From an uncultured Candidatus Saccharibacteria bacterium (GTDB lineage Bacteria > Patescibacteriota > Minisyncoccia > Phycocordibacterales > UBA1006): a DNA stretch of 39,089 nt. The stretch spans positions 4,843-43,931 of the forward strand of contig CAZSCW010000001.1 of the NCBI GenBank assembly GCA_964605495.1. The letters are read 5' to 3'. Below the pieces are notes generated by a model. The model searched no databases and was not told the DNA's origin. It saw only the letters and a program-made list of their open reading frames with translations. The translations under genes were made by a program, and so were the position numbers. Shown here one piece after another: positions 4,625 through 38,568 of the stretch (position 1 is its first letter; every line of letters begins with the position of its first letter).

Positions 4625-7471
4625 TTAATCAACAATATCTTCGTTAAAAAGATAGCTTACCATTGTTTTTTTAGAAATTTTTGTCCAGTCACTACTACAC
4701 TCTACAGATTTATAATGTGCAGTTATTCCACCATACCATGCATATTCTTTTACAAAGCGATTTAATCTACATAAGGCAAGATCACCTTGGCTTAATAAAT
4801 CCCAAACAGATTTTGCCGGTTCAATTTGAAAGAACTCTGCATTATTTGTCAAATTAGGATCCGTTGGCTTATCATCATCGTTTATGTCCCCCTCTACGCC
4901 GATGTCTTGCTTGCAGTATAGTCCAGTATCCCTCACTACATTACTAAGTAATCCGACAGGAACTAATCTTGTACTTTCAGTACAATTATTTAATGGATCG
5001 GCTTGGTATGCTCCTATTTTTGTGTTTAAAATACTTTGACCTGTTAATATCTCGTTTCTAACCTCTGGGGTTGTAAATTCTTTTACCCTAGTTTTTAGAA
5101 TATCGAGCATTTTTTGATGTCCATCTGGATCTGTCGAAAGATTAAAGTTTGTTAAAATAATAATTTTTAGTTTATTACAATCCATAGTTAATTTTTCAAT
5201 TTGGTCAATTGTTGAAGTAAGTTCTTGTATAGATGTTTGTATTTTCTCGGTAGTATATGGTATAGCAATATCATTTTTTATACCATTAAATGATGTTAGT
5301 ATTGATGATTTATCTTTGATAAATTTATCAAATTTTTCATTTCCTGGAACCCACTCAGTCAGATTGGTTATATATCTCTCTGGATTCACCCATAGTGACC
5401 AGATTGCACTGAGGGCCATTTTTTTCTTTACGGTACATGTTTCGTCACAAGTATCTGTTTTTTCTATATTACTAGGATCAATTCCTGCAACTAACCATGC
5501 CGAGTCGAGTACGATACCTTTTTCTGTACTACCAGTCGGTATAGTATCTAATCCTTGAATTTTTTTCGCCCACTCCACTACTGTTTTTTTATCAACAGCA
5601 TTTAGCATATCCCACTCTGTTCCAAACAATGGGGTTTTTTCAGGCATTTTATTTAATTTTTTAGCCCAATTAACAAAGATATTTTGATCTGCTGGCGACA
5701 ATAATTCCCAGTTATGATCGGTGAATGCAATGTTTTGTGGGACTGCAAGACTGGGCTCAAAGCCGTTTAGTCCAAATACACTTGATTTTAAAGTGTTTTC
5801 GATTTGTGATAACACATTTATAGTAAATTGTTTATTTAATATATCTTTTTGGTACTGCTGGAAATTTGTTCGTACTTTTTTTAATATTGCTGTTTGTGAT
5901 TGCATAATTGATGCTCCTGGAATATTCATATCAGGGCGCTGATTAAATAATTCCATTTCTGTTTTTGCATAATCAACACTAGTAATAATGTCGTTATAGA
6001 CAGCTTGTCGCCATCGTTTTGTACCTTCCTTTCCTTTATCTTTTCTTCCTTCCAATCTTGATATTTTTGCTTTTTTATAAGTATCTAATCGTTTTTGATA
6101 TCTAAAGTCAGGACCAGGGATACATTGATCTAGTGCTATAATTTGATCAGAAAAATCCTTCCCATTAGGATCGTCTTTTGTTACAAGGTTTGAGTATTTT
6201 TTAAGCAACCCTAATTCAAATCGTGTTGATGACATTGCTGATGGGAATTCTTCTTGTAAATCAATGAGTGTATATGGTATTTGTGTCCAATTAATATTTT
6301 GACCGTTTTTACCTACCAGTGATTCTGCACCACCTACTGAACTTTTGGATGGCTTGAAATCAGCATTCAGTGCAGTTAATCCTCCTTTAATAAAACTATT
6401 TACTAATCCCAATACCATTCCTGCAATTACTTCACCAAGCTCATCTGATGCAGAAAGTGTTTTTGATCCAGCGTCGAGAGCACTAGTTATCATGCCAGTA
6501 GAAGTTCCTACTGGGTTATTAATAAACTCTTCTAAACATCCACCATAATCTTCGATTACTCCTTTTACAATACTTCCAGCAATTGCAGCTTGATCTATTT
6601 TAATATCTTTTTTAATATCGTTTATATTTGGCTCGTTTTCTTTTGGTTGTTCTGGTTCTGGTGTTGGTCCGTCACCTAATATATCTGAATTATTATTAAA
6701 AGGACTTGCAGGTACAGGAACTGATGTTTCTGCATTTGTCGCAGCATTTAATTGTGCAAGTATTTCCTTGTTTGCTTTAATACTATTAATTCTCTCCTTT
6801 TGTCTATTAACATCAGCTTTGTAATCAGAAAAACTTTTATTACATTTTCCTTGTGGTTTTATGCCTGTTGATGCTAATTTAATTTTTTCCAACTCCTTTG
6901 CTTTTGCGATTTTTTCTGCAATCTCTTGTTTTGCAAGAAGCGCTGATCCAATATTAGTGTTGGCAGGATTGGATAATGCTAAAAATCCATCCCACCCACC
7001 AACTGATGCATCATTTGCAAATTGTTTGTAATTAGCACCAATAACTTTATCTAGATCAAATGCAGAAAGTGCACTTTGACCACCTGCTGCACCTTGGGCG
7101 CTTTTAATTACCGATTTTGCAATCCCAGCAGCATAGGGGTTATTAGAAATTCCTAAATCAGTTACAAACTTGTCTACTTGTTGGCTATCTAGGTTAGCAA
7201 AATAATCAGCAAAATTAGTAATAAATCCATTTTGACTACTGTCGCCACTGGCACCACCTGTTGATTTGTTTACAATTTTATTACTGAGTTTTGCTCCTGC
7301 CATTTGTGCAAGTGAGTTAGCAAGGGTGTCCAAACCATAATCTTTTATAATTTTCAAAACGTTTTTTGCCTCATTCAAAGGGTCAATATTTTGCGCATAG
7401 ATTACATTTGGAAATAGCCCAATTGAAATAAGCAAAATTGCAGATATTATTTTTTTTTGAATAGTTTTCAT
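4625..7471 (-). CDS. secreted 948-aa hypothetical protein
   Basis: Long ORF with N-terminal signal peptide MKTIQKKIISAILLISIGLFPNVIYAQN. No family recognised. Confidence 0.8.
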   Translation of the reverse strand: MKTIQKKIISAILLISIGLFPNVIYAQNIDPLNEAKNVLKIIKDYGLDTLANSLAQMAGAKLSNKIVNKSTGGASGDSSQNGFITNFADYFANLDSQQVDKFVTDLGISNNPYAAGIAKSVIKSAQGAAGGQSALSAFDLDKVIGANYKQFANDASVGGWDGFLALSNPANTNIGSALLAKQEIAEKIAKAKELEKIKLASTGIKPQGKCNKSFSDYKADVNRQKERINSIKANKEILAQLNAATNAETSVPVPASPFNNNSDILGDGPTPEPEQPKENEPNINDIKKDIKIDQAAIAGSIVKGVIEDYGGCLEEFINNPVGTSTGMITSALDAGSKTLSASDELGEVIAGMVLGLVNSFIKGGLTALNADFKPSKSSVGGAESLVGKNGQNINWTQIPYTLIDLQEEFPSAMSSTRFELGLLKKYSNLVTKDDPNGKDFSDQIIALDQCIPGPDFRYQKRLDTYKKAKISRLEGRKDKGKEGTKRWRQAVYNDIITSVDYAKTEMELFNQRPDMNIPGASIMQSQTAILKKVRTNFQQYQKDILNKQFTINVLSQIENTLKSSVFGLNGFEPSLAVPQNIAFTDHNWELLSPADQNIFVNWAKKLNKMPEKTPLFGTEWDMLNAVDKKTVVEWAKKIQGLDTIPTGSTEKGIVLDSAWLVAGIDPSNIEKTDTCDETCTVKKKMALSAIWSLWVNPERYITNLTEWVPGNEKFDKFIKDKSSILTSFNGIKNDIAIPYTTEKIQTSIQELTSTIDQIEKLTMDCNKLKIIILTNFNLSTDPDGHQKMLDILKTRVKEFTTPEVRNEILTGQSILNTKIGAYQADPLNNCTESTRLVPVGLLSNVVRDTGLYCKQDIGVEGDINDDDKPTDPNLTNNAEFFQIEPAKSVWDLLSQGDLALCRLNRFVKEYAWYGGITAHYKSVECSSDWTKISKKTMVSYLFNEDIVD

Positions 7472-29570: not shown

Positions 29571-30335
29571 ATGCAAGAGCGAATCAAAAAATTTCTCCAG
29601 GATATTGGCCTTTCTGAAAAAGAGGCAGCCGTGTATCTGTCGTTACTATCAGTAGACAGTGCATCTGTAATTGAACTTTCAAAATCAACTGATATCAATC
29701 GAACAACATTATATCCAATTTTGGACGATTTGATTGCAAAAAAACTCGTTGTTGAGATAAAGCACGATAAAAAGGTTCGTTTTCAAGCAGAACCACCAGA
29801 ACGCATTGAAACATATGTTCAAAATCGAAAAAATCAGTTAGAGGAACAGGAAAAAGTGTTAGAGGATATTATTCCACAAATGCGTGGGTTTTCACGACAA
29901 ACAGGCGAAAAGCCGATTGTTAAAATATACGAAGGTCACGATGGAATATTGGATGCCATGAGTGATTATTATGAATTTTTAGGTAAAGATCAGGATGCAT
30001 ATTTAGTGTATTCACGAGATCTTATTGAATCTGCATTTTCAAAAAAGGAATTGGAACAAATAAAACAGAAGCGTTTAGGTAAAAATATTCCAGCAAGTGC
30101 AATTTATACGAAGAGCGATGGAGACTATACAACAGAATTGTCACCAAATCAGTTGCGAGTTGATGCTGAAAAATATCCAATTTTGGCAGATATTGCTGTG
30201 CTAGGTGACAGGGTTCGATTCATTACATTAAAACGAAATCTATCTGCTATTTTAATTAAGAACCAGGATATTGCTGAAACATTACAAAGCTTGATTAAAT
30301 TGGTATTAGATTCGCAAAATAATAACCGCACATAA
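29571..30335 (+). CDS. TrmB-like winged-helix transcriptional regulator (paralog 1)
   Basis: N-terminal LQDIGLSEKEAAVYLSLLSVDSASVIELSKSTDINRTTLYPILDDLIAKKLV, TrmB-type wHTH. ~170-aa C-domain. Confidence 0.8.
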   Translation: MQERIKKFLQDIGLSEKEAAVYLSLLSVDSASVIELSKSTDINRTTLYPILDDLIAKKLVVEIKHDKKVRFQAEPPERIETYVQNRKNQLEEQEKVLEDIIPQMRGFSRQTGEKPIVKIYEGHDGILDAMSDYYEFLGKDQDAYLVYSRDLIESAFSKKELEQIKQKRLGKNIPASAIYTKSDGDYTTELSPNQLRVDAEKYPILADIAVLGDRVRFITLKRNLSAILIKNQDIAETLQSLIKLVLDSQNNNRT

Positions 30336-30352
30336 AAGTGCGGTTATAGTGT

Positions 30353-30659
30353 GGAAAAGTTCTCGATAGCAAATAAATATATTAAATACATGATTTGTTT
30401 TTGCTTTTCGATCGTAATGGTGATTAACCCCTTGGGTTGGTGTGAAGGCGCTGGTACATATTGCTATGCCAGTTTTCTGAGGCCTTCACACCGGACGCGG
30501 TTAATGGTCCATAAGTAGATCTGTTCTAAAGAATTTACGTCAACTCAAGTTGTTTTTACGTTGAGCTGGTTGTTGTCATCTTTTTCTAATCAGAAACCTG
30601 ATTAGAAGTAATGACTTTTCCGAACGTTTGATGATCTACCGAGAACTTTCTCGTTTTTT
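30353..30659 (+). ncRNA. candidate ~300-nt structured RNA
   Basis: - No ORF.
- 30353-30369 pairs with 30636-30652 (14 WC + 1 GU of 17).
- Internal perfect stems are GGTGTGAAGGC/GCCTTCACACC (30439-49 / 30482-92) and TTCTAATCAG-aaac-CTGATTAGAA (30584-30607).
- T6 at 30654-59. Confidence 0.4.
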
Positions 30660-30930
30660 GGTTGCTTAGTGTCCCATTTTTCATTGTTAATTTTTAAAGA
30701 ATTGATTTACCTACCAAGTATAGCAGATTCTAAAAATATGTCAAGCTTTTTGCAAAAATAGTCTATCTTTTTCGTCAGGGTAGGCTTTTTTGTAATAATT
30801 TTAATTTTTTCCATTAAATATTTTTATAGAAATATGTCAAATTTTAGTATATTTTGTCTATTTAAAACAACAAAATATCCTTTATTTATAATGATTAATA
30901 TAGTTATCCACAGTTTTATGTCGAAATGAT

Positions 30931-30959
30931 TTGACAAAATATAATGAATCTGCTATACT
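30931..30959 (+). promoter_or_regulatory. strong sigma70-type promoter firing into the noncoding rsr leader
   Basis: TTGACA-17 nt-TATACT. A perfect DnaA box TTATCCACA sits at 30904-30912 just upstream. Confidence 0.6.
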
Positions 30960-31181
30960 GCAATTAAGAACGTGAGATACAGTCATGTTCAATACCGCGA
31001 GATACATAAAAACTGTTTAATTCTTTAGACAGACTCTTGAAACCAAGTCCACTTGATATCAGCCATATGGTTGGTATCTGGAATAGTTGGAATCAGGTAC
31101 GTCACCGAATGACGTTAAATGTCGGCGCAATCATATGCGATATTGAATAATTCTTTTACAAAAAAATAAAACTATATAACT

Positions 31182-31349
31182 ATGCCAAAAACACCGAAAG
31201 ATATCTGGAAATTAACAGTTGCCCTACTGGACCAAAACGGCTTTACCACTCGTGGTGAAAAGAAAAAAGACGCACAGAAGAAAAAGAAGCAATTCTTTTT
31301 TGAAAAGCGATTACTTACTAATCCGGTTGGGAATGGAAAACACCGTTAA
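31182..31349 (+). CDS. possible 55-aa basic small protein in the leader
   Basis: Hand-translated MPKTPKDIWKLTVALLDQNGFTTRGEKKKDAQKKKKQFFFEKRLLTNPVGNGKHR*. No clear RBS. Confidence 0.25.
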   Translation: MPKTPKDIWKLTVALLDQNGFTTRGEKKKDAQKKKKQFFFEKRLLTNPVGNGKHR

Positions 31350-31399
31350 GTTACCATCTGTCTCTCTTGCAGGTTTTGGCGTAGCCAAAGAGAATGTTC

Positions 31400-31474
31400 A
31401 TAATCGTAACTGATTATGATCTTTATCCAGATTATGAAGCAATTCATAGTTTGGTAGAGATGTTCTTTCAAAAA
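31400..31474 (+). ncRNA. A-type RNA module, copy A1 (variant)
   Basis: Small hairpin ATAATC/GATTAT, then CTTTATCCAGATTATGAAG-caat-TCATAGTTTGGTAGAG, then tail ATGTTCTTTCAAAA. Confidence 0.5.
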
Positions 31475-31547
31475 TCTTGAAAGGAATATCCCCAGCATCA
31501 TTTATAAAACGGAGATGGTGTTTGGAATATTCCTTTCGAGGAGAAAA
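31475..31547 (+). ncRNA. C-type RNA module, copy C1
   Basis: TCTTGAAAGGAATATCC ... GGAATATTCCTTTCGAGGAGAAAA, a ~16-bp stem. Confidence 0.5.
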
Positions 31548-31811
31548 ACAATAGGCTGGTGTCAGGACCACAACATCTCTGAATTTACATTCGAACTAAA
31601 TCGGATATAAATGTGGGATTGTTTGCAGAAATATTAAAAAATAATTCTTTGATAAGAGAAAGTAGGAAGATGCAAGAGCTTAGTCATTTCGACTATGTAT
31701 CGTCTATCCTATGATCCGCCTTTCTGATCAAAAGGTTTCAAATTTCTTGGCAGGGTATTACAACTATATCCTTATCTATAAGCATGACGATGTGAAATGG
31801 TAAAATTTTTC

Positions 31812-31921
31812 GGGAAATTGTTTTGCAATCGAGCAAAACAATTTCCCTTCTTATCAGGATCATAACTAATACAAAAAGTTATGGTTCTGTAGGAAGTAAT
31901 GGTCCTACTGTTCTTTTAAAA
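31812..31921 (+). ncRNA. A-type RNA module, copy A2
   Basis: Perfect 15-bp hairpin GGGAAATTGTTTTGC/GCAAAACAATTTCCC, then TTCTTATCAGGATCATAA-13 nt-TTATGGTTCTGTAGGAAG, then tail ...CTGTTCTTTTAAAA. Confidence 0.55.
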
Positions 31922-32692
31922 ATTGTTCACCAAACCGTTCTGCTTCTCAACCTGTGTTGTCGCGCAGGGCCATTATCCGTAAGGATATGGCGTTCCCTTG
32001 GATCTACTTGTCGCTGACTATTATTTCCCGGCTTGGAAATGATGGAAGACTACCTATCCGAGGTTACTTCGCAAATCTAACAAATAAAATTATGTTTTAC
32101 TGTTGGTGGATTCTCAATTCTCGACCAGAGGATTGTAGGGTTTACCAACGCAAACCGAGAAGCAGAGGGTGTGACTACCTGGGGCGGTTACCCAAACAGT
32201 CCAAGCGTTAGCAATCTTGATTATTATTTTCTTTATCATGCATTCCCATCAACCAGGAAGCCAATGTTTCAAAAAGAAACGTTGGCTTCTATCATCGGGA
32301 ATGATATGTTAGGAAAATAATTTTCAAGTCGTTTGGAATGATCATGTGCGCAGTGATTGTTCGAACCAAAGGTTGGTACTCCTTTGGAAGTTGTTAGGAT
32401 GATTCAGGAAATTCTTCTAGAGCTATTCAATGGTCTGGCCGGACTATTGATAGACGTGAAGGGTTTCCTGACATCCGAAATGTCCCGGCACTATGTCAGG
32501 ACAGTTACCTTATTCGCCTCTTGTCGCTTGATCTTTGATTTCTATACCAATAGAGAGAAAAGAAACGACTGCAGAATTAGGTTACTTCGCAGAAAAGTCT
32601 TTTTATTTCGGCGGGGATCCTGTTCCGTACAGACGATACCGCCAGGCCTTGGGATTGAACATAATGTTCAATCCCTTCTTATCAGGATCATA
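31879..32692 (+). ncRNA. ~0.8-kb ORF-poor, highly structured segment between modules A2 and A3
   Basis: Multiple long stems:
- 32244-32300: CATTCCC...GGAAGCCAATGTTTC-aaaaa-GAAACGTTGGCTTC...GGGAATG
- CCTGACAT/ATGTCAGG at 32467-32499
- long-range TCTGCTTCTC (31939-48) pairing with GAGAAGCAGA (32156-65). Confidence 0.4.
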
Positions 32693-32728
32693 AAGTAATT
32701 TGTGATTCTGTAGGAATTTGTTCTTTGA
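32651..32728 (+). ncRNA. A-type RNA module, copy A3 (immediately upstream of rsr)
   Basis: GGGATTGAAC-ataat-GTTCAATCCC, then TTCTTATCAGGATCATAA-loop-TGTGATTCTGTAGGAA, then tail TTTGTTCTTTGA. Confidence 0.55.
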
Positions 32729-32758
32729 TTTTAAAATAATTCTGTTGCTGACGATTTG

Positions 32759-32813
32759 TTTATTTGGTGAAAAAGGGGGTTAAATCACATGTGACTCTCT
32801 TTCACCAAATAAA
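32759..32813 (+). promoter_or_regulatory. perfect 14-bp hairpin ending 9 nt before the rsr ATG
   Basis: TTTATTTGGTGAAA (32759-72) pairs with TTTCACCAAATAAA (32800-13). The 27-nt loop contains AAGGGGG. Confidence 0.5.
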
Positions 32814-32822
32814 ATTTCGTCT

Positions 32823-34427
32823 ATGACTACTATACATACTATTACCGCTGCTTTTGCTGGAAGATCTACAGAATCATCTCATGTTAATCATGCAGGTGGT
32901 ACATCTTTCAGAAGATCCTTGTGGGAACAACTCCTACAAGTACTCAGCACGAATACCTTGAGTGATACATTTTATGTGAAGAAGGAGCAGCTTGCTTCGG
33001 AAACCATAGATGTGATCATGGAGGCTCGTGAAAAAGATCACCGTTTCCTCGCACAAGCAATTGTGTGGGCGCGTAGAGATGGTTTAATGAAATTGGTTCC
33101 GACACTTGCTCTCGCGATTCTTTCTGGAAAGAAAGGTATCGAGCCGCAATTGTTTTTGAACACGTTTCAGCAAACAATCTTGACGCCGGATGATCTCCGC
33201 ACATTCGTTTCAATCATCAAGTCTGGTGTAGTGCCAGGCAGAAGAGGAATTGGTGGAGTGGTGCGCGATGCTGTTCGTACTTGGATGGGTGGTATTTCCG
33301 AATATCATGCTGTTAAGTACGGCTCGGTTAATTCCGATGGAGTTACACTCCGCGACATCTTGCGCCTGACTCACCCGAAACCATCTTCTGATGTGTTGAA
33401 CGAGCGTTTTGGATGGCTTGCAGGTTCGCGCAAGGGAGACCTTACGTTGAATCCGCAGATTTTGTCATTGGAAAAATTGAAGCGTGCAACAACCGAAGAA
33501 GAGATAGTTCAATTGGTTCGCCAAGGAAGACTACCCTACGAGGTTGTGGTGCCGTCAGTTCCGAAGATGACAAAGGCTGTGTGGGCCGAGCTGTTACGAC
33601 AAGCTCCGTACATGAACCTACTTCGAAACTTACGTTCGTTCCGCGAACATGGAGTTTTTGAAGACCAGGCAAATGTCGAGTACGTTGTTGGCAGACTCAC
33701 CGATCCGCGTGCGGTTGAGGCAAGTCGAGTATTACCATTCCGCTTTTTTGATGCGTTAAAAGCTTTCACATTCACCTCTGCACCCGACATGCAGATACGT
33801 GATGCGATAGCGAGCGGGCTTGAATTGTCATTTGTGAATCTTCCGAATTTCGGTTCGGAGACACATGTGACAATTGGTTCAGATGTCAGTGGTTCAATGT
33901 CATCTTATTCAATCTCTGAAAAGAGCGAGACTAAGTGCATTGATATCTGTGGTGTCTTTACCGGAGCTCTCTTAAAACGTAGCGAAAATGTACTTACACT
34001 TCCATTCGAGGGACATGTTGTACATTTGCCACTTTCAAAGCACGACAGCATCGCTGAAACGGCTCGAAAGATTGCAAGTGTGCGAGGTGGTTCCACAGCG
34101 GTTGGTGCACCAATACAATACCTGCTTGATCGTAAGATTAAGACAGATGTATTCATTGGTATCACTGACAACGAGGATTGGGCATATGGATCAGGACACG
34201 CAGTGTCAGGTAAATTTTACGACTTGTGGTTACGCTACAAGAAGGAAATTAACCCAAATGCGAAAGCATTTCTGGTAACCATTCTCCCATACCGCGACGC
34301 TGTAGCCCCTGAGGGCTCGGATGTTCATTTCATCTACGGATGGAGTGAGAAGGTATTGAATTATATTGCTTTGAAAATATCTACAGGCGCGAGTCAGGTA
34401 GATAAGATCAGAACGATAGAAGTTTGA
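32823..34427 (+). CDS. rsr: Ro60-related protein Rsr (TROVE domain + vWA domain)
   Basis: 534 aa. N-terminal NHAGGTSF...LSDTFY and ...AQAIVWARRDGLMKLVPTLALAIL match the TROVE pattern of Ro60/Rsr. The C-terminal vWA has the MIDAS motif DVSGSM. Visibly higher G+C than its neighbours. Confidence 0.85.
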   Translation: MTTIHTITAAFAGRSTESSHVNHAGGTSFRRSLWEQLLQVLSTNTLSDTFYVKKEQLASETIDVIMEAREKDHRFLAQAIVWARRDGLMKLVPTLALAILSGKKGIEPQLFLNTFQQTILTPDDLRTFVSIIKSGVVPGRRGIGGVVRDAVRTWMGGISEYHAVKYGSVNSDGVTLRDILRLTHPKPSSDVLNERFGWLAGSRKGDLTLNPQILSLEKLKRATTEEEIVQLVRQGRLPYEVVVPSVPKMTKAVWAELLRQAPYMNLLRNLRSFREHGVFEDQANVEYVVGRLTDPRAVEASRVLPFRFFDALKAFTFTSAPDMQIRDAIASGLELSFVNLPNFGSETHVTIGSDVSGSMSSYSISEKSETKCIDICGVFTGALLKRSENVLTLPFEGHVVHLPLSKHDSIAETARKIASVRGGSTAVGAPIQYLLDRKIKTDVFIGITDNEDWAYGSGHAVSGKFYDLWLRYKKEINPNAKAFLVTILPYRDAVAPEGSDVHFIYGWSEKVLNYIALKISTGASQVDKIRTIEV

Positions 34428-34728
34428 TATCTTTGAAGGGATGTTGATATTTGGCGATCGGACCGGTTTCACACTGCTTACTACTACCGATAGCAAGGTA
34501 GCGTACAAGTATTTTTTCAAACGGAAAAAATGCGGAGCAGCCGGTTGGCAACAGAAAGTACCTTGCTTGCGAGGGAAAAAGTGAAGAAGGTATCAGATTC
34601 CGCCTTTTAAAATAATTGGAATCACTATATAGACTATTTCGTCATGTTTGCGAAAGCACATGAATATCCTCGCCTTGGTGGAAAACGAAAAGGTGAAATA
34701 GTCAGCGGTTACCAGAAATGGATCCGCA

Positions 34729-34779
34729 CCTGTCCTGAAATGTATATTTCAGCTGATGAGTCCAACAGGACGAAACAGG
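34729..34779 (+). ncRNA. type III hammerhead ribozyme HHR-1
   Basis: CCUGU-C(cut after 34734)-[CUGAAAU guau AUUUCAG]-CUGAUGA-[GUCC aaca GGAC]-GAA-ACAGG. All core nucleotides are present, with a GUC cleavage triplet and stem III open. Confidence 0.9.
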
Positions 34780-34798
34780 AATTGATATCGTGAATTAC

Positions 34799-34837
34799 AA
34801 CAAAACCGCTTGATTGCGGTTTTGTTGTTTCTTTTTC
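34799..34837 (+). terminator. intrinsic terminator right after HHR-1
   Basis: AACAAAACCGC ttgatt... GCGGTTTTGTT followed by a T-rich tail. Confidence 0.65.
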
Positions 34838-34858
34838 TACTCGTGCTATAATTTTGTT

Positions 34859-35407
34859 ATGAAAAGTATTAATACCATTAAAAATACAATAAAACATCAT
34901 CAATCAACCATTACTAAAATAATAATGGTTGTAGTAGTAATTGGATCAGCTTTTGCAGTACATCATGTAATGGCAGCTGATATTCCTGCAGCACCAAATC
35001 CTGCAAAATTGGTAAATGATAATGCAGGAATGTTGAGCGCTGAGCAAATTTCAACACTCGAGAAAAAATTACGAGCATATAATGATTCGACAACTAATCA
35101 AATAGTAATTGTAACAGTGCCAAGTATTGGAATGTACGCAATTGATGATTATGCAAACCGATTAGCAAATCAATGGGGAATTGGAGTTAGCGGAAAAGAT
35201 AATGGAATTTTGGTATTAGTTGCAAAAGGTGAAAAACAAATTGATATTGAAGTTGGTACACGCATGGATGCATCTGTAACTGATATTGATGCAAAACGAG
35301 TTATTGATCAACAAATGGTTCCAGCGTTCAGTAAAAAGGATTACTATGGAGGACTGACAGCGGCAGTTGATAAGTTAATTGCAACTATTACAGCACATCC
35401 TTTATAA
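34859..35407 (+). CDS. TPM-domain (YgcG-like) protein
   Basis: Signal/TM, then VNDNAGMLSAEQISTLEKKLRAYNDSTTNQIVIVTV...GILVLVAKGEKQIDIEVG. Start at MKSINT (34859), behind TATAAT at 34845. Confidence 0.85.
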   Translation: MKSINTIKNTIKHHQSTITKIIMVVVVIGSAFAVHHVMAADIPAAPNPAKLVNDNAGMLSAEQISTLEKKLRAYNDSTTNQIVIVTVPSIGMYAIDDYANRLANQWGIGVSGKDNGILVLVAKGEKQIDIEVGTRMDASVTDIDAKRVIDQQMVPAFSKKDYYGGLTAAVDKLIATITAHPL

Positions 35408-35410
35408 ATA

Positions 35411-35443
35411 AAAACACCTCATTCCGCAGAATGAGGTGTTTTT
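35411..35443. terminator. bidirectional terminator
   Basis: CACCTCATTC cgca GAATGAGGTG with A/T runs. Confidence 0.7.
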
Positions 35444-36218
35444 ATTTTGCCTGTATCCACAGTGTTTCAAAAATCATTTTCGCAAATTCGTAAATAGATT
35501 TATTGGTGATTACAATAGAATGTAATCCCTGATCCCAAATAGTAAATGTCACGTGATTTTTCCAGATAGAACAATGCAAATTCGGATTGAGTATTTTTTT
35601 TGAAATAATTCGTGTATCACGCAGTTTTAATCGTGATTCTTTTAGTTCGTCTTTTGCCATAGGGGATTCGGTAATAATGTTTCGTGCTGTAATACCTTTT
35701 TTCCGGCGAGCTTTACCATACCCATGCAGACGATCCTTTGCAACAGTAAATTTCTCAACTTCACCAGAAATACGTAACACTTCTCCATTTTTATCTTGAT
35801 CAAGTGACCTAAAAAACAAATCAATAAAACCGTCTTCACCTTCCAAGTGTTCTACATCTATTTGTTCAGTTTCGCCACGTAATGCAAAAAACGTACGAAG
35901 TTCTGGAAAAACAGATTCTAATGACTCCATTTTTTGTGTTGCAATTATTTTTTCATACTCTACAAAGTTTTTTATTTTTTCAGGTTTTTCAATATACATC
36001 ATGCGCCGCTTACCAAGTTTGGTTACACCCAAAACTTTTCTCTCAAGGAGGTTTTCAGTAGCTACATGTACCGTCGAACGGGGAAGTTTCACCCCAGATG
36101 CAATATCTGCAATAGTCGAAAGTCCAGATTTAAACAAGTAAAAAATAACCTGCTGTTCGGCCATGTCCAACCCAATAGTTTTTAATGCTGTTTTAATATC
36201 TTTTGGTATTTCAATCAT
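35442..36218 (-). CDS. TrmB-like winged-helix transcriptional regulator (paralog 2)
   Basis: LKTIGLDMAEQQVIFYLFKSGLSTIADIASGVKLPRSTVHVATENLLERKVL. Same length and architecture as 29571..30335. Confidence 0.8.
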   Translation of the reverse strand: MIEIPKDIKTALKTIGLDMAEQQVIFYLFKSGLSTIADIASGVKLPRSTVHVATENLLERKVLGVTKLGKRRMMYIEKPEKIKNFVEYEKIIATQKMESLESVFPELRTFFALRGETEQIDVEHLEGEDGFIDLFFRSLDQDKNGEVLRISGEVEKFTVAKDRLHGYGKARRKKGITARNIITESPMAKDELKESRLKLRDTRIISKKILNPNLHCSIWKNHVTFTIWDQGLHSIVITNKSIYEFAKMIFETLWIQAK

Positions 36219-36342
36219 GATTACAGTGTAGCATATATGTTTAAAATGACCAATTTTTATGACACTTTTAAAATATAATACTAATTTATAAAGGATATAT
36301 TCAAAATAATAATTAAAGTATTAGTATTTAGTGTCATTTTAC

Positions 36343-36371
36343 TTGACTTTTCATGTATACCATGCTATACT
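36343..36371 (+). promoter_or_regulatory. sigma70-type promoter firing into noncoding modules
   Basis: TTGACT-17 nt-TATACT. An inverted repeat ATGACAC..ATACTAAT / ATTAGTAT..GTGTCAT (36259-36337) abuts the -35. Confidence 0.55.
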
Positions 36372-36434
36372 GGTTGTAGAAAGATGAGATAAGAAAAACA
36401 TCTTTCATAAAAATTGTTCATTAAAAAACAACAT

Positions 36435-36572
36435 ATGAAAAGAATAAGAGAGTTTTTTGAAAATTTTAGTGATGATCACCCATTCATCACAGCAATAATG
36501 GTATTAGCTGTTATTGTTTATGTATGTCACTGGTTAGGTGTGCATACATCCTTGTCTGGCATTGACAGATAA
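36435..36572 (+). CDS. possible 45-aa hydrophobic peptide
   Basis: Hand-translated MKRIREFFENFSDDHPFITAIMVLAVIVYVCHWLGVHTSLSGIDR*. One TM-like stretch. No clear RBS. Confidence 0.3.
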   Translation: MKRIREFFENFSDDHPFITAIMVLAVIVYVCHWLGVHTSLSGIDR

Positions 36573-36586
36573 ATGCAAAGGAAAAT

Positions 36587-36665
36587 GGACGAGCCTTTAT
36601 AAAATCGTCCACATTATTCAGCTCACGAATTTCGCGAGTTGATAGTGTAACAATGTTCTTTGAAA
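36587..36665 (+). ncRNA. B-type RNA module, copy B1
   Basis: GGACGA-12 nt-TCGTCC, then CATTATTCAG-CTCACGAatttCGCGAG-TTGATAGTG, then tail AATGTTCTTTGAAA. Confidence 0.5.
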
Positions 36666-36668
36666 TAA

Positions 36669-36730
36669 TCTCGAAAGGAATATTCTGCATATCAGAATAT
36701 GATGAATAGAATATTCCTTTCGAGGAGAAA
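36669..36730 (+). ncRNA. C-type RNA module, copy C2
   Basis: TCTCGAAAGGAATATTC ... GAATATTCCTTTCGAGGAGAAA. Confidence 0.5.
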
Positions 36731-36844
36731 GCACTTCTTGTTTTGGTTGTTGAACAGGAAAGTAGAGACCTGCTCTCTCATGACACAACAACCAGCCTCG
36801 TATAGTTTGATGGAACTATGCTGTGGCGTATTTGCTCCATCATA

Positions 36845-36928
36845 GGGAAGTGTATAAGCAGAAACACTTCCCTTTCTTATCAGGATCATAAAACAATTTG
36901 TGGTTCTGTAGGGAAATGTTCTTTGAAA
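36845..36928 (+). ncRNA. A-type RNA module, copy A4
   Basis: GGGAAGTGT-10 nt-ACACTTCCC, then TTTCTTATCAGGATCATAA-loop-TGTGGTTCTGTAGGGAA, then tail ATGTTCTTTGAAAAG. Confidence 0.55.
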
Positions 36929-36931
36929 AGA

Positions 36932-36981
36932 TTTAATTGGTTACCTAAGTTTCTTACCAGAAATTTAGGTAACCAATTAAA
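36932..36981 (+). promoter_or_regulatory. perfect 17-bp hairpin ending 9 nt before the lipoprotein ATG
   Basis: TTTAATTGGTTACCTAA (36932-48) pairs with TTAGGTAACCAATTAAA (36965-81). 16-nt loop. Confidence 0.5.
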
Positions 36982-36990
36982 TTAAGAGAT

Positions 36991-37305
36991 ATGAAAAAGA
37001 TAAGTATTATCGCATTAGGATTCATAATGTTTTTGACTTCTTGTAAAAACGAAACCTATTACCAAGGTAAGGGTGTAGTTATTGAAGAAGACAGAACATA
37101 CTTTGGGGGTGTGCAAGTGAAAGTATCAGTTGATACTGCAGGAGATGGTAACCAGATTTGGTTCTGGGCATCTCCTGCAGGTTTTGCTGATAGCTATCAC
37201 CGCTATTCTCAAGGTGACACCGTAGACGTTGAATACATGGCATTCAATAGTTGGGTCAGTCCTGTGACGGAAAAGTCCAAACAAGACAGCGCTGAAGTAC
37301 AGTAA
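36991..37305 (+). CDS. small lipoprotein, hypothetical
   Basis: MKKISIIALGFIMFLTSC has an LTSC lipobox. 104 aa. Confidence 0.7.
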   Translation: MKKISIIALGFIMFLTSCKNETYYQGKGVVIEEDRTYFGGVQVKVSVDTAGDGNQIWFWASPAGFADSYHRYSQGDTVDVEYMAFNSWVSPVTEKSKQDSAEVQ

Positions 37306-37377
37306 GCATGTCGCTGGCTAAGGTGCAAAACACCTTACACTCTTGTCTGAAAGAGGTAAAACTTCAGGAAGGAGAAC

Positions 37378-37455
37378 GGGCAAGCCTATATAAAATTGCC
37401 CTCATTATTCAACTCACGAATTTCGTGAGTTGATAGTGTAAGTAGTTCTTTAAAA
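37378..37455 (+). ncRNA. B-type RNA module, copy B2
   Basis: GGGCAA-12 nt-TTGCCC, then CATTATTCAA-CTCACGAatttCGTGAG-TTGATAGTG, then tail TAGTTCTTTAAAA. The first stem is fully compensated relative to B1. Confidence 0.5.
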
Positions 37456-37679
37456 TGACAAATATTTTTTATGGAAGGTTTTATAGAATATCCCCAGTAT
37501 TGTATAGTTTTGGTATAACGCTGTACAAACTCGCTTATGATTCGGCACTATCCGACTCAATGATTGGCACCTGCATATGCCAAAGGAATTGGTTGATTTA
37601 CCAAATACCAATTTCAAAACTAGTAGGTTGATTATTCGTATGGGATTACGAACCTGTCTCTAGAAGATAAATGATCAAC

Positions 37680-37766
37680 GGAGAAACAAATGCCTTGGGA
37701 AATGTTTCTCCTCTTTATCCAATCCATGAAGTAATTCGTGGATTGGTAGAGAAAATGTTCGTTACA
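37680..37766 (+). ncRNA. A-type RNA module, copy A5 (variant)
   Basis: GGAGAAACA-14 nt-TGTTTCTCC, then TCTTTATCCAATCCATGAAG-taat-TCGTGGATTGGTAGAG, then tail AAAATGTTCGTTACAAAA. Confidence 0.5.
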
Positions 37767-37848
37767 AAAATATTTTCCAATCTATTAAATTCAGAAGATA
37801 ATAACTCTTAAATATTTTGGGTAAATTAACCAAATTTTTAAGTTAAGT

Positions 37849-38055
37849 ATGGAAAGATTAGATGTTTATATAGAGATAGGTGATCATTATTACTCTGGTC
37901 TCTATAAAAATTGCCCTGTAATATCTTCTGGTGATGACTGGGCTATTGTATATGTCGAGGTTGGCGATCATTATTACTCGGGAGAGTATAGAGTTCTGCT
38001 TTATGGTGATCGCTGGATGACTACAGACTACTATGGTTATCATTACGATGGGTGA
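37849..38055 (+). CDS. hypothetical 68-aa protein with an internal duplication
   Basis: VYIEIGDHYYSGLY and VYVEVGDHYYSGEY repeats; Y/G/D-rich. Confidence 0.5.
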   Translation: MERLDVYIEIGDHYYSGLYKNCPVISSGDDWAIVYVEVGDHYYSGEYRVLLYGDRWMTTDYYGYHYDG

Positions 38056-38178
38056 ACCCTCTCGCTCTAGAGGTATTGTCGTTAGACATGAGAGGTGCGT
38101 TTTGTCCCCGTCTTGCCGAAAAGATGGAGAGCCTCGAGGAAGCAGAGCCTCACGAGTGATTGCATCTTGCATCCTCGT

Positions 38179-38230
38179 TCTGTCCTAGAATGTATTATTC
38201 TAGCTGATGAGTCCAAAAGGACGAAACAGA
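38179..38230 (+). ncRNA. type III hammerhead ribozyme HHR-2
   Basis: UCUGU-C(cut after 38184)-[CUAGAAU guauu AUUCUAG]-CUGAUGA-[GUCC aaaa GGAC]-GAA-ACAGA. Stems I and III differ from HHR-1 only by compensatory pairs. Confidence 0.9.
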
Positions 38231-38268
38231 TTCTTTTACAAATTTCATAAACAAAAAAAACAGATAGC

Positions 38269-38568
38269 ATGGAAAAGAAATATTATCACTTAGAAAACCT
38301 TGATAAAATCATCACTAAAAAAATCGAGAGTGAACCACAACCACAAATGCAGTCACAGTCACATCTACCGCCAAACTGTATAGACTGTAAGCATCATCGT
38401 GTACTTCCTGACCCAGATCCCGATGATTGGTTCTGTGATGACGATGAAAAAGTTTTGTGTACCCTTGCGAAAAAATTAGTGACAGTCGCATGCAGGCCGC
38501 ACCACAAGCGAAAAGAATGCACGGTTCCGTCATGGTGCCCACTGCTGCAAGCAAACCAAACCGTATAA
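38269..38568 (+). CDS. hypothetical Cys-rich 99-aa protein
   Basis: Eight Cys (CIDC...FCDDDEKVLC...ACRPHHKRKEC...WC). Starts 39 nt after HHR-2. Confidence 0.55.
   Translation: MEKKYYHLENLDKIITKKIESEPQPQMQSQSHLPPNCIDCKHHRVLPDPDPDDWFCDDDEKVLCTLAKKLVTVACRPHHKRKECTVPSWCPLLQANQTV

What the first reader, a model, noticed from the sequence alone, without database searches (positions are those of the whole stretch)
31879..32692. About 0.8 kb of ORF-poor, stem-rich sequence inside the rsr leader: possible large structured RNA
Between modules A2 and A3 there is no convincing CDS. The three track ORFs lack an RBS, have odd composition, and are cut across by long hairpins. Helices are abundant:
- a ~57-nt hairpin at 32244-32300 with a 14-bp core GGAAGCCAAUGUUUC/GAAACGUUGGCUUC, closed by CAUUCCC/GGGAAUG;
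- CCAAAGG/CCUUUGG at 32367-32388;
- CCUGACAU/AUGUCAGG at 32467-32499;
- GGCGG/CCGCC around 32611-32645;
- a long-range pair, 31939-31948 with 32156-32165;
- an internal direct repeat AGGUUACUUCGCA at about 32060 and 32578.

The segment lies downstream of the 30931 promoter with no obvious terminator before rsr. It is therefore probably co-transcribed with rsr. Its size and complexity are in the range of the large ornate bacterial RNAs, but I see no diagnostic motif of RNase P, tmRNA, group I/II introns or OLE.
Basis: partly seen in the sequence, partly recalled or inferred. Interest (0 to 1): 0.6.

Follow-up and report, generated by a model that had tools for sequence, protein, structure and literature searches.

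The report
Tandem Ro60-partner RNAs in rsr leader
The 0.8-kb gene-free stretch before the Ro60 (rsr) gene of this ultra-small CPR bacterium is real, heavily folded non-coding RNA, but rather than one giant RNA it is a string of hairpins carrying two copies of a conserved kinked stem-loop that is absent from Rfam and from the papers searched, is found only beside rsr genes, and is most likely this lineage's version of a Y RNA.

Summary
**Observation confirmed.** Window 31879-32692 is non-coding and very stem-rich. The plus-strand MFE is -308 kcal/mol (z = -11.4), 62 kcal/mol better than the minus strand. Its ORFs are broken by frameshifts and stops in two close relatives. The longest ORF has no protein relative among 1.84 billion proteins.

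**Interpretation partly supported.** It is structured RNA on the rsr strand, but modular rather than one ornate fold.
- A covariance model finds it in all 16 rsr loci examined, always on the rsr strand, upstream or downstream, usually twice.
- It occurs nowhere else in this genome and in none of 57 rsr-lacking relatives.
- It matches no Rfam family, including YrlA.
- Between the copies lie five hairpins, some with compensatory changes. Some have tips wholly replaced in strains whose Rsr is 90-97% identical.

**Best reading (about 0.55):** two Y-RNA-like Rsr partner RNAs processed from the rsr leader. Binding and processing are inferred. No RNA data could be examined.

Other agents in this scan reported similar rsr-linked RNAs on other DNA.

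The parts
31812..31921 (+). Flanking 'A2' punctuation module. It has a variable hairpin (31812-31847, terminator-like), then a ~20-bp hairpin CUUCUUAUCAGGAUCAUAAC/GUUAUGGUUCUGUAGGAAG, then a UGUUCUUUU tail.
   Evidence: Repeats D1 and D2 and inverted repeat I7. Terminator-like call. The same module brackets the unit in L031 and L032.
31934..31948 (+). 5' arm of a long-range helix whose partner is 32157-32170. Both arms are 100% identical in three strains.
   Evidence: I5. Pairs in the MFE. In the three-sequence consensus fold it has 14 bp, all invariant. There is no covariation, and no counterpart appears in the L035 fold.
31951..31991 (+). Two small hairpins just 5' of copy 1. The second one (31969-31991) is the 'P0' hairpin that precedes most copies of the motif.
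   Evidence: The 45 nt upstream of 23 copies fold better than shuffles (mean z = -2.4).
31995..32077 (+). Copy 1 of the rsr-linked motif.
- P1: 31996-32003 / 32056-32063.
- P2: 32010-32012 / 32048-32050.
- k-turn-like loop: GCU-GA (32013-32017) opposite AA (32046-32047).
- P3: 32018-32028 / 32035-32045.
- Tail: UUACUUCGCAAA, 32064-32075.
   Evidence: Covariance-model scores of 58.2 bits (R1) and 53.6 bits, E = 6e-9 (R2). The single-sequence MFE gives P1, P2 and P3 (z = -3.6). P3 keeps pairing through three one-sided changes in L032 and L031.
32104..32148 (+). Hairpin H1. The outer helix UGGUGGAUU/GGGUUUACCA encloses AAUUCUC/GAGGAUU.
   Evidence: Compensatory changes occur in relatives: UGGCGAAUU/GGGAUUCGCCA in L032 and UGGAUU/AAUCCA in L031 (four both-sided pairs).
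32150..32225 (+). Near-invariant block. It holds the 3' arm of the long-range helix (32157-32170), a small hairpin (32179-32199), and AAACAGUCCAAGCGUUAGC.
   Evidence: 100% identity across 32160-32199 in three strains. Part of the block is recognisable in L034 and L035 as a hairpin followed by AACA.
32216..32328 (+). Long hairpin H2, about 110 nt. The basal half is conserved with compensatory changes.
   Evidence: I1, I15. Identity is only 0.25-0.38 across 32240-32319, yet a hairpin forms in all three strains.
32336..32387 (+). Hairpins H3 (32336-32362) and H4 (32366-32387, CCAAAGG/CCUUUGG). H4 is invariant in three strains.
32393..32480 (+). Long hairpin H5: a 22-bp helix 32393-32417/32458-32480, capped by 32422-32436/32441-32455.
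   Evidence: Across the two helices there are 2 both-sided and 9 one-sided changes and 3 pair positions with a non-pair. It is also in the MFE.
32482..32503 (+). P0 hairpin of copy 2: UGUCC/GGACA here, UGUUCCAAU/AUUGGAACA in L032, and a longer GCCCU.../...AGGGC hairpin in L031.
32507..32595 (+). Copy 2 of the rsr-linked motif.
- P1: 32508-32515 / 32574-32581, with one U-U mismatch.
- P2: GUCG/CGAC, 32523-32526 / 32566-32569.
- k-turn-like loop: CUU-GA (32527-32531) opposite AA (32564-32565).
- P3: 32532-32545 / 32550-32563.
- Tail: UUACUUCGCAGA, 32582-32593.
   Evidence: Covariance-model scores of 78.2 bits (R1) and 69 bits, E = 4e-12 (R2). One P3 pair changes U-A to C-G in L031 and L032.
32611..32645 (+). 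GGCGG/CCGCC hairpin between copy 2 and A3. It is conserved in L032 and replaced by a different UUCG-loop hairpin in L031.
32651..32728 (+). Flanking 'A3' punctuation module. Hairpin 1 is GGGA.../...UCCC here, GGGU/ACCC in L032 and GAGC/GCUC in L031. The invariant long hairpin 32676-32716 follows.
32823..34427 (+). rsr, a Ro60 orthologue with TROVE and vWA_Ro60 domains. It is the gene with which the motif always travels.
   Evidence: Pfam PF05731 and PF25045. 331 homologues at E <= 1e-60.

Best explanation
The interval between punctuation modules A2 and A3 is a non-coding part of a long rsr leader transcript.

**Anatomy**
It is a string of independently folding hairpins that carries two copies of a conserved, rsr-specific RNA motif. 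Each copy is a kinked stem-loop with these parts:
- an invariant helix base, CCUU/GAGG;
- 4-5 freely covarying distal pairs;
- an internal loop, U-rich on the 5' side and UGC on the 3' side;
- a 3-4-bp helix, GUCC/GGAC;
- a k-turn-like loop (3-nt bulge, then G-A, opposite (G/A)A);
- a variable hairpin that can hold more than 100 nt;
- a conserved single-stranded 3' tail, UUACUUCG(A/C)A.

**Proposed function**
I read the two copies as this lineage's Y RNAs, that is, partner RNAs of the Ro60 ring protein Rsr. The invariant helix base plus the tail would be the protein handle. The variable hairpins would be spacers or effector and target modules. The RNAs would be released from the precursor at the long perfect hairpins of the A modules, most simply by RNase III, which the genome encodes.

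**Shown**
- The motif, its covariation and its exclusive linkage to rsr.
- Non-coding status.
- Structure conservation of the neighbouring hairpins.

**Inferred**
- Transcription as one precursor.
- Processing.
- Binding to Rsr.
For: **Family and linkage to rsr**
- Covariance models R1 and R2 give 26 hits at E < 1e-3 in all 16 rsr loci examined. All are on the rsr strand and most loci have two.
- In L009, L010, L011 and L018 a copy lies 3' of rsr. The motif is therefore not merely a 5'-UTR regulator.
- The whole own genome has only the two copies in this finding.
- Among 61 relatives, the motif is found only in the two genomes with a full-length rsr (G000 and G032) and in none of 57 genomes without rsr.

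**Structure**
- 92.6% of cells pair, against 25-54% when partners are slid.
- The distal P1 pairs covary (AU 9 / GC 9; GC/AU/UA/CG).
- P2 covaries: GUCC/GGAC, GUUC/GAAC, GUCG/CGAC, GCC/GGC.
- Single-sequence MFEs recover P1, P2 and P3 with a free tail in most copies.

**k-turn-like signature**
- 17 of 26 copies have N3-GA after P2.
- 23 of 26 have an A directly before the 3' strand of P2.
- In most of the 17 copies the next position is a non-pair, and a run of 4-7 base pairs follows.

**Match to the genomic definition of bacterial Y RNAs**
- Chen et al. 2014 (PMC4201824) found them on the same strand within 4 kb of rsr, often two per locus, and processed from one precursor in M. smegmatis.
- No canonical YrlA is present that could otherwise serve this Rsr.

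**Other support**
- Non-coding status.
- Strand: the plus strand is 62 kcal/mol more stable than the minus strand.
- RNase III is present in the genome at 241 bits.
Against: - There is no RNA-level evidence. Transcript ends and processing are therefore unknown.
- Binding to Rsr is untested.
- The motif lacks the YrlA tRNA-like domain and the GNCGAAN0-1G box. It shares only the tetramer GUCC with the animal Ro-binding box GGUCCGA.
- In both window copies the second k-turn pair would be A-A rather than A-G. In copy 1 of L031 and L032 the bulged-strand GA is AA.
- The classical Y-RNA effector PNPase and the RtcB ligase were not found, either here (78% complete) or in the 97%-complete rsr-bearing relative G032. 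The tethered-effector part of the Y-RNA model therefore has no candidate.
- About 560 of the 814 nt lie outside the two copies and have no assigned role.
Confidence: 0.55

Rival explanations
1. Cis-acting elements of the rsr mRNA. The motif copies are binding sites in the UTRs through which Rsr, or another protein, autoregulates rsr translation or stability. They are not released as separate RNAs.
For: - The copies share strand and probably transcript with rsr.
- In the window and its closest relatives both copies lie in the 5' leader, 230-830 nt before the start codon.
- No strong terminator separates them from rsr.
Against: - Copies lie 250-780 nt downstream of the rsr stop codon in L009, L010, L011 and L018.
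- The distance to the start codon is not conserved.
- Copies are bracketed by punctuation hairpins.
- This reading overlaps with the best explanation, because a Y RNA can also be cut from a UTR.
Confidence: 0.2
2. The whole ~0.8 kb folds into one large, ornate RNA with a single global architecture, in the manner of OLE, GOLLD or ROOL.
For: - Folding energy is extreme (z = -11.4).
- A 14-bp long-range helix (31934-48/32157-70) has both arms 100% conserved in three strains.
- The two-copy unit with about 520-630-nt spacing recurs in L031, L032, L034 and L035.
- The L035 counterpart is also highly structured (z = -8.5).
Against: - No Rfam large-RNA family matches, even at E <= 10.
- Nearly all predicted pairs are local hairpins.
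- The long-range helix shows no covariation and is missing from the L035 fold. A duplex search between the flanks of 15 copies gave no significant closing helix.
- Inter-copy sequence does not align at 79-83% Rsr identity.
- Copies occur singly or 140-330 nt apart in other loci.
- Whole hairpins are swapped between near-identical strains.
Confidence: 0.15
3. A decayed protein gene, or a set of small genes.
For: ORFs of 49-113 aa are open in this sequence.
Against: - In both close relatives the ORFs carry frameshifts, with stops at residue 15-30, and show no third-position bias.
- As an internal control, the neighbouring 55-aa ORF at 31182-31349 is intact with a third-position bias.
- There are no Pfam hits.
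- phmmer against 1.84 billion proteins finds only the ORF's own copy.
- The conservation pattern is a mosaic of invariant blocks and swapped hairpins, not uniform drift.
Confidence: 0.02
4. A repeat or small mobile element (REP- or MITE-like palindromes) that happens to sit near rsr.
For: - Many palindromic hairpins.
- Some hairpins are exchanged wholesale between strains.
Against: - There are only two motif copies in the genome, both at rsr.
- Self-comparison of the interval against the whole window finds no other repeats.
- The motif is conserved with rsr across distant lineages and shows helix covariation.
Confidence: 0.03

Closest known systems
Bacterial Y RNAs: YrlA/YrlB (Salmonella, Mycobacterium, mycobacteriophages) and Yrn1/Yrn2 (Deinococcus radiodurans). 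Source: Chen et al. 2014, PMC4201824; Rfam RF02553.
   Same: - Encoded within 1 kb of rsr on the same strand.
- Usually two per locus.
- In M. smegmatis both lie upstream of rsr and are cut from one precursor.
- Stem-based RNAs with a short conserved box.
   Different: - No match to the YrlA model.
- No tRNA-like T and D arms.
- No GNCGAAN0-1G box.
- The conserved parts here are instead a CCUU/GAGG helix base, a k-turn-like loop, and a 10-12-nt single-stranded tail UUACUUCG(A/C)A.
- The copies are embedded in a far longer (~1.9 kb) structured leader.
- PNPase and RtcB were not found in these genomes.
Animal Y RNAs (Rfam RF00019).
   Same: - A long imperfect stem with a conserved protein-binding helix interrupted by loops.
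- The tetramer GUCC of the animal GGUCCGA box recurs in P2. One relative, L016, has GGUCCGA exactly.
   Different: - There is no 5'/3'-end stem with a bulged C.
- There is no Rfam match.
- The similarity is limited to 4 nt and is not statistically meaningful.
Large ornate bacterial RNAs (OLE, GOLLD, ROOL, HEARO, raiA).
   Same: Size range and very high density of helices.
   Different: - No Rfam hit at E <= 10.
- The architecture is a chain of local hairpins.
- Only the two ~85-nt modules are conserved beyond close relatives.
Kink-turn (k-turn) motif.
   Same: The layout matches: a Watson-Crick stem (P2), a 3-nt bulge, then G-A opposite G-A, usually a non-Watson-Crick third position, then a second stem. 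It is present in 15-17 of 26 copies.
   Different: - It is inferred from sequence pattern only.
- Both window copies have A-A at the second position.
- No L7Ae-type binding protein was looked for.
RNase III processing hairpins between cistrons (phage T7 early transcripts, rRNA operons). This comparison is from general knowledge.
   Same: The unit is bracketed by ~20-bp near-perfect hairpins (A2 and A3) that recur between functional units of the locus. RNase III is encoded.
   Different: Cleavage is untested. The A modules also carry a terminator-like first hairpin and a conserved tail whose role is unknown.

Membership tests
YrlA (Rfam RF02553) | Scores at or above the family's gathering threshold (69 bits) with the covariance model. 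| tested here: not met
   No YrlA hit in 30600-32900 at E <= 10. The best hit in the whole genome is 11.4 bits, on another contig. None was found in nine other rsr loci at gathering threshold.
YrlA (Rfam RF02553) | A tRNA-like domain with T and D arms. | tested here: not met
   ARAGORN finds nothing in 30300-38500. There is no Rfam tRNA or tmRNA hit in the stretch.
YrlA (Rfam RF02553) | A GNCGAAN0-1G box near the 5' end (Chen et al. 2014). | tested here: not met
   The window copies read GUCGCUGAC and GUCGCUUGAU, and the tail reads CUUCGCA. Neither fits the box.
Bacterial Y RNA (functional class) | Encoded within 4 kb of rsr on the same strand. | tested here: met
   All 26 hits in 16 loci are on the rsr strand and within about 1 kb of the gene. 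The motif is absent from rsr-less relatives.
Bacterial Y RNA (functional class) | Bound by Rsr/Ro60 in vivo or in vitro. | not testable with these tools
   Needs co-immunoprecipitation or a gel-shift assay.
Bacterial Y RNA (functional class) | Accumulates as a discrete small RNA. | not testable with these tools
Large ornate RNAs (OLE, GOLLD, ROOL, HEARO, raiA) | Match to the family covariance model. | tested here: not met
   The Rfam 15 scan at gathering threshold and at E <= 10 returns only chance miRNA and snoRNA hits of 25 bits or less.
Large ornate RNAs (generic) | A conserved global fold with long-range helices supported by covariation. | tested here: not met
   The only long-range helix is invariant, so it gives no covariation. 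It is absent from the L035 fold. Inter-copy sequence is not conserved at 79-83% Rsr identity.
k-turn | A C-stem, a 3-nt bulge, tandem sheared G-A/A-G pairs, then an NC-stem. | tested here: inconclusive
   The sequence pattern fits in 15-17 of 26 copies. The window copies have GA opposite AA. No structural test was done.
Protein-coding gene or pseudogene | A reading frame or protein similarity conserved in relatives. | tested here: not met
   The conserved 55-aa ORF at 31182-31349 serves as a positive control.

The most novel reading that the evidence does not exclude
The whole A2-A3 interval is released as one ~0.75-kb RNA that carries two Rsr handles. It would therefore assemble two Ro60 rings on a single scaffold. 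Its fast-swapping hairpin tips (32244-32300, 32482-32503, 32611-32645) would act as exchangeable specificity or effector modules. This would be a new, large, multivalent class of Y RNA in bacteria that lack PNPase and RtcB.
Probability: 0.12. Interest if true: 0.8.

Novelty: new variant of a known kind. Interest (0 to 1): 0.6.

Why it matters
- **A missing partner for CPR Ro60.** Ro60/Rsr proteins act through partner Y RNAs. Bacterial Y RNAs have been characterised in only a few cultured bacteria and their phages, mostly as tRNA mimics. The many Rsr genes of CPR/Patescibacteria have no YrlA.
- **A concrete candidate.** A conserved, covarying, rsr-exclusive RNA with a k-turn-like kink and a single-stranded tail supplies a candidate partner and a searchable model for hundreds of such loci.
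- **A different effector.** PNPase and RtcB were not found in these genomes. Ro60 would then have to work with a different effector, or alone, in these minimal cells.
- **A tractable example of a processed non-coding precursor.** The surrounding architecture includes long hairpins, punctuation modules, nearby hammerheads, and hairpins exchanged between near-identical strains.

Tried and rejected
- **BLASTN against relatives.** BLASTN of the interval against 40 relatives found nothing.
- **BLASTN against more distant rsr loci.** It gave only short hits, which nevertheless pointed to the motif.
- **Exact-pattern scans.** The metagenome collection gave 1 contig and the viral collection gave none.
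- **Pattern with 3 mismatches over 400 phylum genomes.** It was no better than its reversed control, so it was dropped in favour of covariance models.
- **k-mer sharing table.** It was pure low-complexity noise.
- **RNAduplex search for a helix closing around each copy.** Nothing was significant.
- **Tail as an antisense guide.** The own genome holds no complementary target other than the copies themselves.
- **Nested, degenerate third copy.** I considered 5' half CCGUUCUG..UUGUCGC at 31936-61 with 3' half GACUACCUGGGGCGGUUAC at 32172-92. In L034 and L035 the 3' part instead forms a local covarying hairpin, so I do not claim it.
- **Alternative genetic code 25.** It opens no convincing ORF.
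- **Gordonia phage Ro locus as a YrlA control.** It had neither YrlA nor the new motif, so it did not work as a control.
Full report
**Setting.** The window is contig C1:4843-43931 of a 549-kb, 78%-complete genome whose relatives are 0.5-0.9-Mb genomes. The closest named rsr loci belong to Candidatus Paceibacterota. A gene at 32823-34427 (+) encodes a Ro60/Rsr orthologue with TROVE and vWA_Ro60 domains. About 2.5 kb upstream, from the stop of a TrmB-like gene at 30335, there is no long ORF. The finding covers 31879-32692, between two repeated 'A' modules (31812-31921 and 32651-32728, D1 and D2).

**Observation.**
- The plus strand folds to -308.2 kcal/mol, against -218.6 +/- 7.9 for shuffles (z = -11.4).
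- The minus strand reaches only -246.2 kcal/mol. This asymmetry is expected if G-U pairs matter, and it points to a plus-strand RNA.
- Rfam 15 finds nothing relevant, at gathering score or at E <= 10.
- ARAGORN finds no tRNA-like gene.

**Not coding.** Through Rsr homologues I fetched two close relatives whose upstream DNA aligns to the window:
- L032, with Rsr 97% identical and upstream DNA 83% identical;
- L031, with Rsr 90% identical and upstream DNA 78-82% identical.

In both, every ORF of the interval is interrupted by frameshifts and by stops at residue 15-30. Substitutions in the two ORFs tested (85 and 113 aa) show no third-position bias. The neighbouring 55-aa ORF at 31182-31349 behaves like a real gene: it is intact, 51-52 of 55 residues are identical, and changes fall mostly at third positions. 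None of the four ORFs scanned has a Pfam hit. phmmer of the 113-aa ORF against 1.84 billion proteins finds only its own copy.

**The key: the 13-nt direct repeat marks a conserved motif.** A weak BLASTN comparison with nine other rsr loci kept hitting the two repeat copies. Anchoring on them showed the string GGACUGC-N5-GAGGUUACUUCGAA in every locus, on the rsr strand. Further 5' lie CCUU-N4 and UUUUGUCC-NNUGAC.

Single-sequence folds give the same shape in most copies:
- helix P1, CCUU+N4 paired with N4+GAGG;
- an internal loop;
- helix P2, GUCC/GGAC;
- a variable hairpin P3;
- an unpaired 3' tail.

I built a covariance model from seven copies (R1) and rebuilt it from 18 (R2). R2 finds 26 matches at E < 1e-3 in all 16 rsr loci held. 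All are on the rsr strand, and most loci have two. The two copies here are 31995-32077 (53.6 bits) and 32507-32595 (69 bits).

**Support for the structure.**
- On the model alignment, 92.6% of cells pair, against 25-54% for slid partners.
- The four distal P1 pairs covary freely (for example AU 9 / GC 9). The four proximal pairs, CCUU/GAGG, are almost invariant.
- P2 covaries as well: GUCC/GGAC, GUUC/GAAC, GUCG/CGAC, GCC/GGC.
- Between P2 and P3 the pattern matches the layout of a kink-turn. There is a 3-nt bulge, then GA on the 5' strand (17 of 26 copies). An A lies directly before the 3' strand of P2 (23 of 26; GA in 15). In most of the 17 copies the next position is a non-pair, and a run of 4-7 base pairs follows.
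- Both window copies have GA opposite AA. Copy 1 of L031 and L032 has AA in place of the bulged-strand GA. I therefore treat the k-turn as likely but unproven.
- Most copies are preceded within a few nucleotides by a hairpin of unrelated sequence, here called P0 (mean z = -2.4 over 23 copies).

**Specificity for rsr.**
- The own genome has only these two copies.
- In the same 61 relatives that I searched for Rsr, the model hits only G000 and G032. These are the only two with a full-length rsr. None of the 57 genomes without rsr has a hit.
- G003 has only a C-terminal rsr fragment at a contig end.
- Copies lie upstream of rsr in the window, L031, L032, L034, L035 and L012-L017. They lie downstream in L009 and L010, and on both sides in L011 and L018.
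- One locus is labelled as a gammaproteobacterial MAG (L012). I did not verify that label.

**The rest of the interval.** The three-strain alignment, its windowed identity and a consensus fold show a mosaic.

Near-invariant blocks:
- 31920-31959, at 100% identity;
- copy 1;
- 32160-32199, at 100% identity;
- 32360-32399;
- copy 2.

Hairpins with compensatory or one-sided changes:
- H1 at 32104-32148, reading UGGUGGAUU/GGGUUUACCA here, UGGCGAAUU/GGGAUUCGCCA in L032 and UGGAUU/AAUCCA in L031;
- the base of H2;
- H5 at 32393-32480;
- P3 of both copies;
- hairpin 1 of A3, reading GGGA/UCCC, then GGGU/ACCC, then GAGC/GCUC.

Three hairpins keep their position but not their sequence. They are the apical 57 nt of H2 (32244-32300, identity 0.25-0.38), P0 of copy 2, and in L031 the 32611-32645 hairpin.

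The long-range helix 31934-48/32157-70 is in the MFE but both arms are invariant, so nothing tests it. It has no counterpart in the fold of the L035 unit. A flank-duplex search around 15 copies gave nothing significant. In L034 and L035 (Rsr 83% and 79% identical) the two copies keep a similar spacing of 531-631 nt. The L035 unit is also highly structured (z = -8.5). The sequence between the copies, however, no longer aligns.

**Transcription context.**
- The best promoter-like site is at 30931-30959 (TTGACA-17-TATACT with an extended TG).
- The only clear terminator is after rsr, at 34797-34828.
- The first hairpins of A2 and A3 are flagged as terminator-like but are followed by UUCUUAU, not a U run.
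- In L031 and L032 the same A modules bracket the two-copy unit. In L010 one A module follows the single copy.
- The second A hairpin is a ~20-bp duplex, and the genome encodes RNase III at 241 bits. Processing there is my inference.

**Comparison with what is known.** Chen et al. 2014 (PMC4201824) defined bacterial Y RNAs. Their best matches lie within 4 kb of rsr on the same strand, and there are often two per locus. In M. smegmatis both are cut from one precursor upstream of rsr. The present RNAs meet that genomic definition.

They fail every defining feature of the YrlA family:
- no RF02553 match;
- no tRNA-like arms;
- no GNCGAAN0-1G box.

Similarity to the animal GGUCCGA box is limited to GUCC. 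PNPase, the effector tethered by the Deinococcus Y RNA, and RtcB, the operon partner in Salmonella, were not found. This holds both here and in the 97%-complete, rsr-bearing G032, where only S1/KH-domain fragments scored. A full-text search found no paper on Y RNAs in CPR bacteria.

**Mechanism proposed.** One long plus-strand transcript from about 30960 runs through a small protein gene, several RNA modules and rsr. The A-module duplexes are cut, most simply by RNase III. This releases the interval, or each half of it. Each motif copy presents an invariant helix base plus a 10-12-nt single-stranded tail. A helix plus a single strand is what Ro60 proteins are known to bind, on the outer surface and in the central cavity respectively (from memory of the Xenopus structures; not tested here). 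The kink and the variable hairpins project away. The shown and inferred parts are separated in the section Best explanation.

**Earlier notes of this scan.** These were read after I had derived the motif and the k-turn pattern.
- Other agents reported rsr-linked, non-Rfam RNAs in Patescibacteria on other DNA. One was described as kink-turn-containing, and one report described 'hairpin punctuation'.
- Hammerheads were reported downstream in this same window.
- These notes agree with my reading, but I cannot confirm that they concern the same family.

**Verdict.** It is ordinary in kind, as partner RNAs beside a Ro60 gene, but new in form. It is not a single giant RNA.

Noticed in passing
window 31182-31349 (+): A 55-aa lysine-rich ORF (MPKTPKDIW...) inside the 'RNA island' is intact in L031 and L032. 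51-52 of 55 residues are identical and changes fall mostly at third codon positions. It is probably a real small protein gene in the rsr leader. It has no Pfam family.
   Followed up: partly
window 32244-32300, 32482-32503, 32611-32645 versus L032 and L031: Whole hairpins are replaced by unrelated hairpins at the same positions in strains whose flanks are 90-100% identical and whose Rsr is 90-97% identical. This looks like cassette exchange rather than gradual compensatory drift. The mechanism is unknown.
   Followed up: partly
window 31812-31921 and 32651-32728 (also 36845-36928): The A modules consist of a variable, terminator-like hairpin, an invariant ~20-bp hairpin and a UGUUCUUUGA-like tail. 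They bracket the two-copy unit here and in L031 and L032, and one follows the single motif copy in L010. They are candidate processing or attenuation punctuation.
   Followed up: partly
L016 8170-8300 (+), about 620 nt downstream of that locus's rsr: A 131-nt match to the tmRNA model spans only its tRNA-like ends (56.9 bits). It is either a reduced tmRNA or a tRNA-mimic RNA beside rsr in a Doudnabacteria MAG.
   Followed up: no
own genome G000 and relative G032: No PNPase over cut-off and no RtcB were found in either rsr-bearing genome. G032 is 97% complete. RNase III is present in G000.
   Followed up: partly
window 32536-32558: Inside P3 of copy 2 there is a second symmetric GA/GA internal loop (G31 A32 opposite G51 A52 of the copy). 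It may form tandem sheared pairs.
   Followed up: no
L012 (contig labelled uncultured Gammaproteobacteria): An rsr 58% identical to this one carries the same motif upstream (44.6 bits), plus a second tail-only match at 5805. This is either joint horizontal transfer of protein and RNA, or a mis-binned contig.
   Followed up: no
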